Positions 1 through 60,000 of a DNA stretch of 64,000 nt are shown piece by piece. Where the stretch lies: assembly GCF_023055435.1 (NCBI RefSeq), contig NW_025963802.1, positions 41,292,001 through 41,356,000 on the forward strand. The letters run 5' to 3'. This DNA is from Haliotis rufescens. Lineage: Eukaryota. The position numbers are program-made. Position 1 is the stretch's first letter. Each line of letters opens with the position of its first letter.

Positions 1-3000
1 ATTTCCTATTGTATGACACTTTTATGTAGTTTATGATACATCTTAGCAGTTTTTATTCAACGACTAAACCGACATCACAAGGCATGCTTTCTTGTTTCCG
101 TTTATCAAACTTATGAAAGTGTGAATGAATCAACTAATTAAACGTACAAGTCTTACAGAAAGAGTTTGCGAACAAGAATCAAATTACATGCAAGAGGAAT
201 AAATATAAACATTGGGATTAAAATGAAAGTTAAGCAACTTCTTTAATATAATTACATTATGTTATTCAATCATGATCTCTTACTCCAATTTTCTATCTGA
301 ATTGTCTGCACCACCTCCGTGCTCGTGGGTTTCACCAAAGTGAAAAAATGAAGTGACAAAACTCTTTCCATACCCAATAGAAATCTCTGCATAAAGCAGA
401 GTCGACAGTACGATGCAAACTATATCATGAGGATATGTTTATGAATCACTATCAAATAGTAATGATACCAGGTGTTCGCGAAAAGGTGAGCGTTTCCTGC
501 CCCACTGGTGGCACCCGTCACAAACACATGCAAAGGCAAGTCAGTTGTTAAGTCCGATATATATCTATATCTCCGAGTGAAATCATCATGATAGACATGT
601 GTTACCGTGTAGTGTACTGGTCATGTATGGATTGGAAATCATTGAACATACAAGACATAAATATACTGTAAGGATATTTATTAACAGTTATACATATAAG
701 CGATAACATCCCAAACATCTTTGTTTAGGATGCAAAACATGTCAACTTTGAAGACACAACTGCTTGAAGCAATACTGACAGTATCTGACACCAACACTAT
801 CAATGCAAAACTGGCTGAACCAGAATGGATAGCCCTGATTTTGTTTCATCCCGAACTAAGACACTGTTTCTGTTCATTTAGAGTATCATGTAGGTGGGGT
901 CATATACAGCAGGTCCTGTCGGAGCAACATCAGTTGCGGCAATAGTCGTGGGAGCAGCAGCAGAGGGGGCAGCAGCAGCATTAGCGTCGAGATCAACATA
1001 CACTGGACCTGCAGGAGACAAAATACAAATAACTGACTTTGACACGATACCGAATGCATTTTGTACAAACACATCAACACTGTAGTCATGTTTCTGATCT
1101 ACTGCTGGTTTCTTTTGTATCAATTGCATAAGTATCGAGATAAAATAAAATAAACTGACTATTAAGCCATGTTTCTTATTTACTGTATGTTCATTTCTGT
1201 AAATTTATAAAGGCATCGAGATCGTACCAGAACCAGAATCTGTAGAATAGAAAATAAATAAATAAATAGGGGATGTATTACTTGATAATAAACCTTGAAA
1301 CACATCAGCAAGGTTGTCCGTGTTCTCATTTACTGTTAGCGGTTCTATCACAATGTAATAATGCACTTACCATTACCATTGGATTGAATGGCACCAGCGC
1401 CCTGTAACCCTGGATGGACTAATCCTTGGTTGGGGAGCCCTGAGCCGAGACCAAGAGGGGAAACACCAAGTCCGTAAGGGGAAACACCAAGTCCGTAAGG
1501 GGAAATTCCATATCCGAGAGGAGGAATCCCAAGACCGAAGGGGTGCATCCCAAGACCAAAGCCGGGAATTCTAAGGCCGAAGTGGGGAAACCCTAGGCCG
1601 AAATGAGGATTGCCGATGCCACCGAAAGGAGGGAAACCAATTCCAAAACCGTGCGTTCTTGTTATGGCAACAAGGCAGACAATGATGACAGCAAGTACCT
1701 TCATGGTTTATTTGAATCTGGGAAGTAAGAGAAAATGTACATGTGTTAATTGAAACCGTGAAATATTTAATGACGTCATTTCTATTTTGACGATGATTTA
1801 CAAAATGTAATGCAAATGAAGGACATACTGTAAACCATTTAGCTTTCTTCACTGAGAACTAAAACTATATTAACAAAGGCCACTTTATATTCAACTCCAT
1901 CCTAAATTTTAAACGCATATTTACATGTTATCAAACACGTTTGTATATTCACAAACACACTGAATTTGACAACTCAAAACGTTGAAATATCGCCTTTGTC
2001 CGAATAAAATAACAATCACCCAGAAACGTCCCAATCGCTATAATATTTATTTTTATCTTCTTGTAATTTGAATCGAATGTGAAGTAGATTATGAAGCATC
2101 CAGTGATCTGAATTATTGTTCTTTTAGGATTGGTTTGGAATAACATGATAATGCTAACATTCCCATCACTGCATATTAAGATGTTTAAGAAAATGCAATA
2201 ATATGTATTCCGTCATGAACAGAGCGGGTAGAATTATGTAAATAATTATATTCGTGCACATGGATAATCCGTGAGAAGGATCCGGTTCCATATACCACGC
2301 AAGTACTTCATGTGAACACGAAATGAAATTAATATATGCGATGACGACATTAAACTGCACACAAAAATACTTACTTTTCTACGGATCAGAATAGGTTTAC
2401 CAGGAGAGTCCGAATCGGAAAGTGAAGTCTGCATCAAAACGTCTACCTTATATACTAAGACAGACGGTTATATGCACCGGTCCACTTACGGTCATAAATT
2501 GTAAATGTGTCTGCACTATGACGGGGTTGTCAACGTATTATACAACGATGGCCAGTCTATGTTAGCTGTGTGATAGTATTTATTGACAAGGACTCATTGA
2601 TTGACGGCAACAATGGACAGTAAATTATGTCATTCCTTACAGACGTTTTTTCAAGAAATGTGAGGAATTCATCAGCTCATTACACATATAGGGTGAATAC
2701 ATGTCAAATTGTGGAGAGAGAGAGAGAGAGAGAGATAAAGAGAGAGTGAGGGATAGAGAGAGTAATACATGTTATTTTAAATACAATTTACTTTGCATGA
2801 TGTACGTAAATTGTAAGATTTATAATTGTACGTGTTTCACAGGAAGACATTCGCTTATTAAATGCAACAAGATGGGTAAATTTTGACGAATATATGTTGA
2901 TATGTCAATATACTCATTGATGGACGGCAACAATGGACAGTAAATTATGTCATTCCTTACATACGTTGATTCAAGAAATGTGAGGAATTCATCAGCTCAT

Positions 3001-57000: not shown

Positions 57001-60000
57001 TGCTTATAACGAACTACTATTATAACGAAATAAAATAAGTAGTCCCTTTGAGTTCGTTACAACCGTAGTTTACTGTAGTTCACTCGTTCAGTAAAGAATT
57101 TATGGCTAGAACATCCAAATGTACAATGCTCTAAACTGGCACCTAAAAAAAAATATTCCTCTCTTTTATTGTAAAATTACTTCTATGTATGGTCAATTCA
57201 GATCTAATTCAGAGAAATGAGTAAATAGGCATGAACCACATAGTTATCAGTAGCAAAACATCGATCTCTATATAACAAAACGCCAACGCCAAAGAATATT
57301 CTGTCTCGATTGTCTGCCGAATAGTGAGTAAGTTTGGTTTCATGCCGCTTTTAGCAATATTCCAGCAATATCACGGCGGGGGACACCAGAAATGGGCTTC
57401 ACACATTGTACCCATGTCGGGAATCGAACCCGGGTCTTCGGCGTGACGAGCGAACGCTTTAACCACTAGGCTACCCGACCGCCCATCTGCCGAATAGCAT
57501 TGCTTTGGACGCCAAAACGAAAGTTGAGGAGAAGTGAAATGGGGTTTAACGTTGCGTCCAAGATTATTGCACTTATATAGCGACGTGCACGTGCGTGTGT
57601 GTGTGTGTGTGTCTATGTGTGTGTTACAATTTTCTTTGTCTCACGAAAGCAAAAACATAGTTACAAAAAGTTCTACCTTATTGACAGATGACACTAGGTA
57701 GCAGTGGCAAACGTAATAATTAGCAATATATCATTGTACTAGCTAGCCCAAGGTTATCTGTCAACATGGTCAGTAGTGTCCACTGCCTTAAGCTTGTATT
57801 TGACCTCAGGGAGTAATGTCACCATGGACAATGACGTCATAGTTACTTGTGCAATACGGCTGCTTACTTAAACTGATGGATATATAAGTTCCCCTAAGAC
57901 ATGCAGTTGAGGCATTCCAAGGCTTGACTTTGTAAACAGGTAAGTTACACTCTGATAGTTTGGTAGTGCAGTTACGATATAAGCGATGCGCGTCATAAAC
58001 GATTGCCACTTTCTTGAGTGAGTGAAAGTCGCTTACAACAGTACTTCAGCTACATGACGGTGTGTCAGCTGTACATGTATGTGGGCAAAAACACATTTGA
58101 AGACCTTTTTCATGTATGTTTTTTAACGTATTAAATTATTCCAAATCTGTTTGATTTCAGGGACATAAGATGAGGACTACTGTCGTTATTCTAGCAGTCA
58201 TGGTTGTCGGGGCGACATGCAAGTTATATGGAGGCGGCTATGGTCCTGGATTTGGTCATGGCTTTGGTCATGGCTATGGCTATGGTCCTGGATTTGGTCA
58301 TGGCATTGGTCATGGCTATGGCTATGGTCGTGGATCTGGTCATGGCATTGGTCATGGCTATGGCTATGGTCGTGGATCTGGTCATGGCATTGGTCATGGC
58401 TATGGCTATGGTCGTGGATCTGGTCACGCCCGCATTAGCCCTGGTTTTGGTGCTAACCACGTCGACGTTGAGGTACACCACGTCCCCCATGGCAACCATA
58501 TCGACACCATCACCAGACATGTTCCACATGTGTACGCAGGCAATGGAATGCATGGTGGATTTGGACATGGATATGGCGGTCATGGCCATGGATATGGGGG
58601 CGGCAGCATCTCAGTACACCATCATGGTGGCCACTTTGGTGGACACGGATATTGAATTGTCGGACACGCCCCACATGGTACGTTAATTAGTCTTCTAAAT
58701 ATAAGCTCCAAAGTATCGTCAATCAGGTGTAGTGTTCAGTTGGTTACTACCGAAAACACATTTGACCAGTTTGGACACAGCCTTATTTGACTTTCTATAC
58801 ATTTGGTAAAGATATTTTAATACTTTTCAACTTGTATTACGCAACATAAAACACATCCTGTTCTTATTCTGCAAACTTCATTTGTACAGGACCAATGGGA
58901 ACAATAGGTTAAAATAATTTATTGGATTTCCATGATCCGATGAAAACACCATGTTACATTTTGAAAACTGATTATCGAGTGTCATAGCGAGGGGGTCGGT
59001 TTCCAGAAGTAAAACGGAACGTGTAACTTGCTTAATCTATAAAATGTCAATAAATTCTGTCTGCATTTTTGTTTAATATTTGAATTCGATGGTAAAGAGC
59101 TCATTTTTATTTATACAACATAATTCAATGTTTTTTAGAAGGTATACGAAATTATCTTTTTTCTGCTCATTATTTCATTGATTATGCATTGCAGGCAACC
59201 AGCAATGACGTCCGAACACAAACCCGAGGTCACGATGAAAAGGTTTATGAAGCAGCCATGTCTTCTTTTCACTCGCTGTATGACAATGGTAATAAATCGA
59301 TGGTAGTTTATAAGAAGTCTTGTTGTTTTATTTCTTATTGCATACACACAGTGGAGTTTGCTTGTCATATAAATACAATGTTTGAAAGTAGTTAACGAGT
59401 GATTTTTGTTTAACGTCGCTGAGCAAAGTGATGAAGCTGTTAAAAGTAAGGAAGCGAATATATGGATGTCAACTTCTTTATTATGAGGAACAAAACGTTT
59501 CGGAGTATATGCTTACTCCTTCACCTGATGAAGGAGTAAGCATATACTCCGAAACGTTGTGTTCCTCATATTAAAGAACTTGACATCCATATATTCTCCT
59601 TCTTATTGGATATTTGTTCTAAGAAATATCGTACAATGGTCATGATATGTATTCCGAAAAATGTTACATTAAATGGTTCAACCTGTATTAAGAATCTTTC
59701 TAATTCATTGGTTAATCCGTAACACGTGACGAAACTATACATTTAAATTCAGACCCCCGAATCACGTGACTGACATGGACCTCGAATATTGACTCGTCAC
59801 ATGAACAGAATTGACCTGTCACGTGATAAATATTGACTCGCCTGCTAGAAAACAAGATGGCGTCTGGTACTACCATTTCGTGATTCGCAGTCAGGTTAAT
59901 GTAATGAAACAGGACAGTTTAAAGGTTTCATTTCGGTTTANNNNNNNNNNNNNNNNNNNNNNNNNNNNNNNNNNNNNNNNNNNNNNNNNNNNNNNNNNNN

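What the first reader, a model, noticed from the sequence alone, without database searches (positions are those of the whole stretch)
878..58655. Amplifying cluster of eight secreted low-complexity protein genes: candidate undescribed biomaterial system
Seen: the only intact host genes in 64 kb are seven Gly/Pro/Leu heptad paralogues and one Gly/His/Tyr protein. All have signal peptides, TATA-type promoters and a short non-coding first exon, and none has Cys in the mature chain. Known: molluscan and annelid structural materials (shell matrix, periostracum, squid beak, polychaete jaw) use such repetitive secreted proteins, often from tandem clusters. Inference: a co-expressed two-component material, with a hydrophobic self-assembling matrix under dosage amplification plus a His/Tyr cross-linking or metal-binding partner. 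I cannot name the family or tissue.
Basis: partly seen in the sequence, partly recalled or inferred. Interest (0 to 1): 0.8.

Follow-up and report, generated by a model that had tools for sequence, protein, structure and literature searches.

The report
Abalone-only secreted repeat-protein gene cluster
This stretch of red-abalone DNA holds seven recently duplicated genes for small, secreted, floppy, oily repeat proteins found only in abalones, next to one glycine/histidine/tyrosine-rich gene; they look like building-material proteins, but what they build is still unknown.

Summary
The window is abalone DNA: its proteins are 99-100% identical to Haliotis rufescens RefSeq proteins.

**A/B genes.** There are seven intact paralogues, A1, A2 and B1-B5.
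- Each has a TATA-type promoter, a short non-coding exon 1 and two coding exons with a phase-1 junction.
- Each encodes a signal peptide, 7-residue repeats (21-bp period; z 8-9.5) and a conserved Ala/Thr/Tyr tail.
- The mature chains have 0 Cys and 0-1 Lys/Arg.
- B1-B4 lie in four tandem units of about 9-9.6 kb at 96-98.5% identity; B5 is an inverted copy.

**Gene C.** It encodes a 161-aa protein (mature chain Gly 38%, His 17%, Tyr 10%) with the same gene layout. No database protein matched it.

**Relatives.** Profile searches of 5.8 and 1.84 billion proteins found the A/B family only in Haliotis. Pfam, PDB and seven literature searches gave no characterised relative. AlphaFold predicts disorder.

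**Status.** The A/B genes are already RefSeq models with misleading automatic names.

**Open.** A structural-material role is the best reading, but it is inferred. Co-expression of A/B with C, and the tissue, are untested. This is a new variant of a known kind, of moderate interest.

The parts
878..2454 (-). Gene A1: TATATAAG at 2454; non-coding exon 1 ends at 2375; exon 2 1371-1717 (ATG at 1704); intron of 362 nt; exon 3 878-1008 including the stop
   Evidence: Its exon 3 tail is 95% identical to RefSeq protein P0005.
7703..9144 (-). Gene A2: degraded TATA (TATGAAAG) at 9144; exon 1 ends at 9065; exon 2 8184-8509 (ATG at 8496); intron of 371 nt; exon 3 7703-7812
   Evidence: Its tail is 100% identical to P0008, which uses a donor 6 nt upstream.
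15773..17045 (-). Gene B1: TATAAAGG at 17045; exon 1 ends at 16974; exon 2 16021-16363 (ATG at 16354); intron of 120 nt; exon 3 15773-15900; AATAAA at 15620-15625
24796..26069 (-). Gene B2: same layout as B1; exon 2 25044-25386; exon 3 24796-24923
   Evidence: Its tail is 100% identical to RefSeq protein P0001.
34360..35632 (-). Gene B3: same layout; exon 2 34608-34950; exon 3 34360-34487; coding sequence identical to B1
43970..45243 (-). Gene B4: same layout; exon 2 44218-44560; exon 3 43970-44097
49771..51079 (+). Gene B5: inverted copy, head to head with B4; exon 1 ends at 49842; exon 2 50489-50831 (ATG at 50498); exon 3 50952-51079
   Evidence: It corresponds to RefSeq protein P0002.
57881..58655 (+). 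Gene C: TATATAAG at 57881; exon 1 ends at 57939; intron of 221 nt; exon 2 from 58161; ATG at 58170; stop at 58653-58655. The 161-aa Gly/His/Tyr protein contains a 42-bp repeat of 4.5 copies at 58236-58426
   Evidence: No database protein matched it. The nearest AATAAA/ATTAAA is at 59049.
10925..48527 (.). Tandem array of four units, each carrying one B gene. ATG-to-ATG spacing is 9023, 9564 and 9610 bp. Pairwise identity is 96.1-98.5%
49981..53216 (.). Inverted partial copy of the unit (B5 with its flanks), 91.7-94.7% identical to the tandem units
18821..18889 (-). Relic of the A-type proximal promoter module inside the B unit, repeated at 28038-28106, 37408-37476 and 47162-47230. It has no TATA box and no exon 1 similarity

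Best explanation
**Shown**
- The window comes from red abalone (Haliotis rufescens) or a very close relative.
- It holds a Haliotis-restricted family of small secreted proteins (138-155 aa). Each has a signal peptide, about 8-10 hydrophobic heptads of the type G-L/F-G-x-P-x-L/F, and a conserved tail that includes an invariant PTTIAAT stretch and keeps three tyrosines in all seven window genes.
- The proteins have no Cys, almost no Lys or Arg, and are predicted to be disordered.
- One subfamily (B) has recently multiplied by tandem duplication of a unit of about 9-9.6 kb, plus one inversion.

**Inferred mechanism**
- After secretion, the disordered Gly/Pro-rich hydrophobic repeats associate with each other, much as the hydrophobic domains of elastin do, to form an extracellular matrix.
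- With no Lys or Cys, any fixing of that matrix would have to go through Tyr and His, by oxidative or metal-mediated links.
- The material is most likely made by a secretory epithelium such as the mantle edge (shell framework or periostracum). The jaw or radula is the alternative.

**Gene C**
- It is a neighbouring, unrelated, secreted Gly/His/Tyr low-complexity protein of the same broad class.
- Whether it works together with A/B is open.
For: **Species and gene models**
- B1 exon 2 is 99% identical to RefSeq protein P0001. The B2 and A2 tails are 100% identical to P0001 and P0008.
- The seven intact genes share one structure.

**Repeats and composition**
- TRF finds 21-bp repeats in exon 2 of all seven genes. 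Lag-7 identities have z of 8.4-9.5, and 0 of 2000 shuffles reach them.
- Mature chains are G 21-23%, P 12-14%, A 10-13% and L 9-12%, with Cys 0.
- The repeat part has GRAVY +0.35 to +0.48 and 2P+G of 0.54-0.58.
- Cys 0 and Lys/Arg 0-1 also hold in all 8 family members from three species.

**Structure**
- AlphaFold on the 8-sequence alignment gives mean pLDDT 44.6, with only the signal-peptide helix.

**Restriction to Haliotis**
- The profile search of 5.8 billion proteins returned 8 Haliotis proteins plus 2 weak repeat-only hits.
- In 1.84 billion representatives, 1 protein scored below 1e-30, and it is the family's own representative. Of the other 146 hits, 144 have their best match within the repeat part. 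The 10 I read were not relatives; most look like translated tandem repeats.

**Amplification**
-.

**Analogy**
- Has-tsfgr1 of H. asinina is a 114-aa secreted protein with GGYGLGL heptads and a C-terminal Tyr. It is expressed in the larval shell field and juvenile mantle edge (PMC2034539, passages read).
- ESM Atlas look-alikes of both P0001 and C are arthropod low-complexity cuticle proteins. The scores (0.81-0.83) are weak.
Against: - No expression, proteomic or localisation data for these genes were reachable, so the tissue and the structural role are inferences from composition.
- The H. asinina shell proteome paper does not describe such a protein: it reports 14 proteins and I read passages only (PMC2989941). 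The passages I searched in the H. laevigata paper did not either (PMC6003135). Tryptic proteomics would, however, hardly see chains with 0-1 Lys/Arg, and the supplements were closed.
- 2P+G of 0.54-0.58 falls slightly under the roughly 0.6 line that I recall for elastomeric proteins. That threshold is recalled, not checked.
- All coding differences among B1-B4 are nonsynonymous (0 synonymous, 1-4 nonsynonymous per pair, except the identical pair B1/B3). That pattern would fit defence or reproductive proteins just as well, although the counts are tiny.
- The AlphaFold alignment is shallow, at 8 sequences.
Confidence: 0.5

Rival explanations
1. A/B and C are co-expressed parts of one two-component material: a hydrophobic self-assembling matrix (A/B) plus a His/Tyr cross-linking or metal-binding partner (C), with B amplified for dosage.
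For: - C lies 7.1 kb downstream of B5 on the same strand and has the same gene layout: TATA box, short non-coding exon 1, and an acceptor 9 nt before the ATG.
- C is Gly 38%, His 17% and Tyr 10%, and ends in Tyr.
- In squid beak proteins, His/Tyr repeats drive pH-triggered phase separation (PMC6884462, passages read).
- A1 and C share a 9-mer (CGTCATAGT) upstream of the TATA box. B and C share a 12-mer in opposite orientation.
Against: - There are no expression data.
- The C promoter does not align with the conserved A/B promoter module.
- I expect about 0.02 shared 12-mers per comparison by my own arithmetic, and several comparisons were made, so that match is marginal.
- C has 0 GHGxY motifs.
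- C was not found as a protein in any database searched, so linkage in other Haliotis species could not be checked.
Confidence: 0.15
2. Host-defence effectors. C would be a Gly/His-rich antimicrobial-type peptide, and the A/B array would be a rapidly diversifying family of secreted immune or surface-protective proteins.
For: - These are small secreted proteins in a recent tandem array.
- Differences among B1-B4 are all nonsynonymous.
- Mature C has a calculated pI of 9.2 and 25 His.
- Gly/His-rich antimicrobial peptides exist in plants and arthropods. This point is recalled, not tested here.
Against: - A/B repeat parts are hydrophobic and nearly uncharged (0-1 Lys/Arg), with acidic tails of pI 4.1. 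Typical cationic peptides are not like this.
- No dibasic processing sites are present.
- No antimicrobial family was hit in Pfam.
- The Atlas look-alikes are cuticle proteins, though weakly.
Confidence: 0.12
3. Secreted but not load-bearing: components of pedal or epithelial mucus, a surface film, or larval attachment secretions.
For: - The same features fit: a signal peptide, disorder, and hydrophobic repeats.
- The invariant Ala/Pro-flanked Thr-Thr in the tail could carry O-glycans. This is an inference from the alignment.
Against: - The proteins are only 138-155 aa and have no Ser/Thr-rich mucin domain.
- No Pfam domain was found.
- Nothing in the data here distinguishes this reading from the structural one.
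Confidence: 0.15
4. Gene C is not a gene. It would be a spurious open frame across a 42-bp minisatellite, so the cluster is simply the A/B family.
For: - No database protein matches it.
- Two other frames across the same repeat are also open, at 160 aa and 121 aa.
- There is no canonical poly(A) signal within 390 nt of the stop.
Against: - Only this frame starts with a signal-peptide-like N-terminus, 9 nt after a consensus acceptor.
- That acceptor follows a 221-nt intron, a GTAAGT donor, and a TATATAAG box 59 nt upstream of the donor. This is the same layout as the A/B genes.
- The frame also stays open through the 44-residue non-repetitive centre.
Confidence: 0.15

Closest known systems
[quoted passage not shown]
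   Same: It is a small secreted abalone protein (114 aa, 17-residue signal peptide) built of heptad repeats (GGYGLGL) with a C-terminal motif ending in Tyr. It is expressed at the shell field and mantle edge (PMC2034539, passages read). Gene C also has a signal peptide of about 17 residues, Gly/Tyr repeats and a terminal Tyr. A/B also use Gly/Leu heptads.
   Different: Has-tsfgr1 is over 52% Gly, against 21-23% in A/B and 38% in C. A/B heptads carry Pro and His and are followed by an Ala/Thr tail. Neither profile search returned a relative outside the eight Haliotis proteins.
Tropoelastin hydrophobic domains (source of the RefSeq label 'elastin-like' on P0003)
   Same: Both have Gly/Pro/Leu/Val-type hydrophobic short repeats, predicted disorder, and an expected tendency to self-associate by hydrophobic coacervation. 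The behaviour of elastin is established knowledge, recalled here.
   Different: A/B have no Lys-rich cross-linking domains (0-1 Lys) and are 10-20 times shorter. No sequence relationship was found.
PAWP / WBP2NL (source of the RefSeq label 'postacrosomal sheath WW domain-binding protein-like')
   Same: The only shared feature is a heptad rich in Gly and Pro. PAWP's YGxPPxG repeat is recalled, not checked.
   Different: A/B have a signal peptide. They have 0 PPxY and 0 YGxPPxG motifs in 8 of 8 family members, and no Pfam domain. The label comes from low-complexity matching.
Squid beak histidine-rich proteins (HBP-1, HBP-2)
   Same: They are secreted, disordered Gly/His/Tyr-rich repeat proteins with few tryptic sites. 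His acts as a pH switch and Tyr as a sticker for phase separation (PMC6884462, passages read). C has 12 GHG, 14 Tyr and 25 His.
   Different: The defining GHGxY unit is absent from C (0 copies). C instead uses GHG[I/F]GHGYGYG in a 14-residue period. No homology was detected.
Abductin (scallop hinge elastomer) and Nvjp-1 (Nereis jaw protein)
   Same: The likeness is in composition only. Abductin is a small secreted Gly/Met/Phe repeat elastomer, and Nvjp-1 is Gly/His-rich. Both descriptions are recalled; neither sequence was available.
   Different: Their repeat units differ. Neither profile search brought back a relative outside Haliotis, although the large library carries no names. Membership was not tested directly.

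Membership tests
Elastin / tropoelastin | Lys-rich (KA/KP) cross-linking domains alternating with hydrophobic domains | tested here: not met
   Mature A/B chains have 0-1 Lys.
Elastin / tropoelastin | Detectable sequence homology | tested here: not met
   There was no Pfam hit. Profile searches returned only Haliotis proteins and repeat-only matches. PDB hits were all at E >= 0.034 and unrelated.
PAWP / WBP2NL | PPxY and YGxPPxG motifs, an intracellular protein with an N-terminal WBP2-type domain (features recalled) | tested here: not met
   8 of 8 family members have 0 PPxY and 0 YGxPPxG motifs. No Pfam domain was found. An N-terminal signal-peptide-like helix is present.
Squid beak histidine-rich proteins | GHGxY modular repeats: at least 4 in tandem, or 2 with a spacer (PMC6884462) | tested here: not met
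   Mature C has 0 GHGxY motifs, 12 GHG and 4 GHGYGY.
Squid beak histidine-rich proteins | pH-dependent phase separation and presence in a chitinous hard tissue | not testable with these tools
   No biophysical or localisation data were available.
Has-tsfgr1 / shematrin-like Gly-rich shell proteins | Signal peptide, Gly-rich short repeats and a C-terminal motif ending in Tyr | tested here: met
   This is met for C, which has a signal-like N-terminus, 38% Gly, a 14-residue repeat, and ends in GHGY. A/B end in GI, IL or AL, so they do not meet the terminal-Tyr feature.
Has-tsfgr1 / shematrin-like Gly-rich shell proteins | Expression at the mantle edge or shell field | not testable with these tools
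   No expression data were reachable.
Has-tsfgr1 / shematrin-like Gly-rich shell proteins | Sequence homology | not tested
   The comparator sequence was not obtainable. The paper's figures are not held.
Haliotis A/B heptad family (RefSeq models P0001-P0008) | Signal peptide, G-x-G-x-P-x-x heptads, an invariant PTTIAAT stretch in the tail, 0 Cys, and a two-coding-exon structure with a phase-1 junction | tested here: met
   All seven window genes meet these features. The alignment has 55 invariant columns, 13 of them in the tail.

The most novel reading that the evidence does not exclude
A genus-specific elastomer-like material system that has neither lysine nor cysteine. Hydrophobic Gly/Pro/Leu/His heptad proteins would coacervate like elastin. 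They would be fixed through Tyr/His chemistry by a co-regulated neighbouring GHG/Tyr-rich protein acting as a pH-triggered condensing and cross-linking partner. The matrix component would be undergoing species-specific copy-number expansion.
Probability: 0.12. Interest if true: 0.7.

Novelty: new variant of a known kind. Interest (0 to 1): 0.35.

Why it matters
Mollusc genomes hold many lineage-restricted, fast-evolving, repetitive secreted proteins that build shells and other hard or elastic parts. Most have never been linked to a material.

This cluster is a clean example. It combines an abalone-only family with an unusual chemistry for a matrix protein (no Cys, almost no Lys or Arg, His in the repeat) and a very recent four-fold tandem expansion, next to a Gly/His/Tyr gene for which no protein model was found.

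Two practical points follow:
- The RefSeq names 'postacrosomal sheath WW domain-binding protein-like' and 'elastin-like' are misleading.
- Tryptic proteomics would be nearly blind to these proteins, so their absence from published abalone shell proteomes says little.

If tissue data tie them to a structure, they would be a compact model for elastin-like self-assembly without lysine cross-links.

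Tried and rejected
**Searches that found no relative**
- Pfam on each exon translation and on C gave nothing. The best was SGP at E = 5.4, below its cut-off.
- Pfam on the full-length RefSeq relatives gave nothing.
- The PDB sequence searches gave only chance hits.
- The protein search with C returned 13 low-complexity hits, such as bacterial Spy/CpxP proteins. I treated them as compositional.
- ESM Atlas scores of 0.81-0.83 are in the range that shuffled proteins often reach, so I used them only as a weak lead.
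- I made no fold search, because the model was low-confidence.

**Literature**
- I made seven searches.
- No paper combined the RefSeq name with abalone.
- The one paper found with 'elastin-like', Haliotis and mantle is an unrelated review.
- Six peptide motifs gave one irrelevant hit.
- I read passages in PMC6003135, PMC4944945, PMC2989941, PMC2034539, PMC9263180, PMC6884462 and PMC6351634. None describes this family. Supplements were closed and could hold relevant peptide or transcript lists.

**Other checks**
- Other genes or mobile-element proteins in the window: 0 of 161 ORFs had a Pfam hit. I saw no virus-like element.
- tRNA genes: ARAGORN found 0, and Rfam gave 2 borderline tRNA-like SINE heads.
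- A shared promoter code between C and A/B was rejected as unproven.
- The window is not human.

**Exon handling**
- Searches of my own splice model were made exon by exon. I neither built nor searched a joined coding sequence.
- The full-length comparators were database proteins returned by the tools.

Full report
**What is in the window**

The window is 64 kb of eukaryotic DNA at 34-42% G+C. It has one run of 150 N at 59941-60090, which I left alone. It is not human.

The translated first coding exon of B1 is 99% identical over its full length to a Haliotis rufescens RefSeq protein (P0001). The second coding exons of B2 and A2 are 100% identical to the tails of P0001 and P0008. The source is therefore red abalone or a very close relative.

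**Gene models**

All seven A/B genes share one structure:
- a cag acceptor 9 nt (B) or 13 nt (A) before the ATG;
- a coding exon of 334 nt (313 nt in A2) ending at a GTAAGT donor in phase 1;
- an intron of 120 nt (B) or 362-371 nt (A);
- a last exon encoding 35-42 residues and a stop.

The RefSeq proteins use this same junction, except that P0008 uses a tandem donor 6 nt upstream.

Upstream alignments show a TATA box (TATATAAG in A1, TATAAAGG in B1-B5) 72-80 nt before a conserved GTAAGT donor. That gives a non-coding first exon of roughly 40-50 nt. In A2 the box has decayed to TATGAAAG.

Gene C has the same layout: TATATAAG at 57881, a donor after 57939, an acceptor before 58161, and the ATG at 58170.

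I searched my own model exon by exon, and I neither built nor searched a joined coding sequence. The full-length sequences I used were database proteins returned by the tools.

**The proteins**

The A/B N-termini look like signal peptides: MK, a hydrophobic stretch, then T-H-G. AlphaFold models residues 2-17 as the only helix. No signal-peptide predictor was available.

Composition of the mature A/B chains:
- Gly 21-23%, Pro 12-14%, Ala 10-13% and Leu 9-12%;
- 0 Cys, 0-1 Lys and 0-1 Arg;
- the repeat part is hydrophobic (GRAVY +0.35 to +0.48);
- the tail is acidic (pI 4.1) and has three Tyr.

The heptad repeat is real. TRF finds 21-bp arrays in every exon 2. Identities at lag 7 are 32-39, against 9.6-12.0 in shuffles, and 0 of 2000 shuffles reach the observed value in each of the six genes tested.

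Mature C is 144 residues: Gly 38%, His 17%, Tyr 10%, no Cys. It has a 42-bp (14-residue) repeat of 4.5 copies at 97% identity and a terminal Tyr.

**Amplification**

Self-comparison shows four tandem units between about 10925 and 48527. ATG spacings are 9023, 9564 and 9610 bp, and pairwise identity is 96.1-98.5%. An inverted partial copy at 49981-53216 (91.7-94.7%) carries B5 head to head with B4. The A1 and A2 flanks are 91% identical.

B1 and B3 have identical coding sequences. Among the other pairs of B1-B4, every coding difference is nonsynonymous (1-4 per pair, 0 synonymous, in 152 codons). Against B5 there are 8 synonymous and 10-12 nonsynonymous differences. The counts are too small for a selection test.

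The nearest H. cracherodii protein (P0003) is 89-90% identical to the H. rufescens B proteins, while B1-B4 are 99-100% identical to each other in exon 2. The four-unit expansion is therefore either younger than that species split or kept uniform by gene conversion. Whether the array is correctly assembled, or varies between animals, could not be tested.

**Relatives**

- Pfam gives nothing for any exon, for C, or for the full-length relatives.
- A search with B1 exon 2 found 8 proteins, all from Haliotis (rufescens, cracherodii, asinina), with automatic names.
- A profile of these eight found the same eight plus two weak repeat-only hits from unnamed contigs.
- Against 1.84 billion representatives, the profile found one protein below 1e-30, the family's own representative. 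Of the 146 other hits, 144 have their best match within the repeat part. The 10 I read were not relatives; most look like translated tandem repeats.
- PDB sequence searches gave only chance matches.
- C found no relative, and not even itself, among 5.8 billion proteins. It seems to have no protein model there.
- The ESM Atlas places both P0001 and C nearest to arthropod low-complexity cuticle proteins, at scores (0.81-0.83) that carry little weight.
- AlphaFold gives mean pLDDT 44.6 with no structure beyond the signal helix, which fits disorder, though the alignment has only eight sequences.

**The rest of the window**

I tested 161 ORFs against Pfam, and none had a match at E <= 0.01. They were 160 of the 190 stop-to-stop ORFs of at least 55 aa in the non-redundant part, plus one from the repeated part. 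The 30 dropped ORFs overlapped the genes' coding exons or a microsatellite.

I saw no transposase, reverse transcriptase or virus-like gene. The intergenic DNA holds a tRNA-derived SINE, with two heads just over Rfam's tRNA threshold and 15 further pieces, along with other short repeats.

**Literature**

I made seven searches and read passages in seven papers. None describes this family.

The nearest described thing is Has-tsfgr1 of H. asinina. It is a 114-aa secreted protein of GGYGLGL heptads ending in Tyr, expressed in the larval shell field and juvenile mantle edge (PMC2034539).

The abalone shell proteome papers I looked at do not mention an A/B-like protein in the passages read (PMC2989941; PMC6003135).

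In squid beak histidine-rich proteins, phase separation depends on GHGxY repeats (PMC6884462). C has 12 GHG but no GHGxY.

**Interpretation**

Shown:
- a Haliotis-restricted family of small, secreted, disordered, hydrophobic heptad proteins without Cys or Lys;
- seven intact copies here, four of them in a very young tandem array;
- next to them, a Gly/His/Tyr low-complexity gene with matching architecture.

Inferred:
- These are extracellular matrix or material proteins that self-associate through their hydrophobic Gly/Pro repeats.
- Any cross-linking would have to use Tyr and His.
- The mantle edge is the most likely source, by analogy with Has-tsfgr1. The jaw or radula is an alternative.

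My data neither support nor exclude it. The A and B promoters share a clear module that C lacks, and the short matches between C and A/B are marginal.

Rival readings are listed with their tests: defence peptides, mucus or film components, and C being a spurious frame.

**Verdict**

This is a new variant of a well-known kind: lineage-restricted, repetitive, secreted mollusc proteins. The A/B genes already exist as RefSeq models under misleading names. Interest is moderate until expression or proteomic data link the genes to a structure.

Noticed in passing
18821-18889, 28038-28106, 37408-37476, 47162-47230 (-): About 1.7 kb upstream of its own promoter, each B unit carries a 69-71 nt copy (87% identity) of the A-type proximal promoter module. 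The copy has no TATA box and no exon 1 similarity. It may be a relic of a lost gene copy or a distal control element.
   Followed up: partly
57409-57480 (-), 62176-62247 (+), and 15 further pieces, e.g. 8002-8137, 15371-15503, 24394-24526, 33958-34090, 43568-43700: A tRNA-derived SINE. Rfam's tRNA model scores 30.1 bits against a gathering score of 29, and ARAGORN calls no tRNA. One piece lies in intron 2 of A2. One lies about 120-250 nt beyond the poly(A) signal of B1, with a copy at the matching place after B2-B4.
   Followed up: partly
9144 and 8184-8190 (-): The TATA box of A2 is degraded to TATGAAAG. Its RefSeq model (P0008) uses a donor 6 nt upstream of the GTAAGT site, so there is a tandem donor.
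   Followed up: partly
P0022, P0023 (unnamed contigs; not in the window): These are two 234-aa proteins with a signal-like N-terminus. Their G-x-G-[VI]-[SHN]-P-Y heptads closely resemble the A-type repeats: 44% identity over 68 residues, pairwise E = 1e-13, a value inflated by the repeats. Their C-terminal half is unrelated. Distant kinship or convergence cannot be told apart, and I did not pursue the source.
   Followed up: partly
13175-13456, 22198-22710, 31768-32040, 41371-41652, 52437-52706, 61538-61792, 62718-63032: Recurrent open frames from an interspersed repeat, with peptide stretches such as DPDSIIYRPPSYSWN, occur on both strands inside and outside the B units. They have no Pfam match.
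   Followed up: partly
2592-3223; 55988-56180: There is a 324-bp tandem duplication (2.0 copies, 91%) upstream of A1, and an (ACATAC)n microsatellite of about 31 copies.
   Followed up: no
25998 (-): The last base of B2's exon 1 differs from the other B copies (AAAAT against AAAAC before GTAAGT). The donor itself is intact.
   Followed up: no
57820-57835 (+) and 1735-1750 (-): A perfect CRE-like palindrome (ATGACGTCAT) lies about 50 nt upstream of the TATA box of C. The same palindrome lies in intron 1 of A1, near the acceptor.
   Followed up: no
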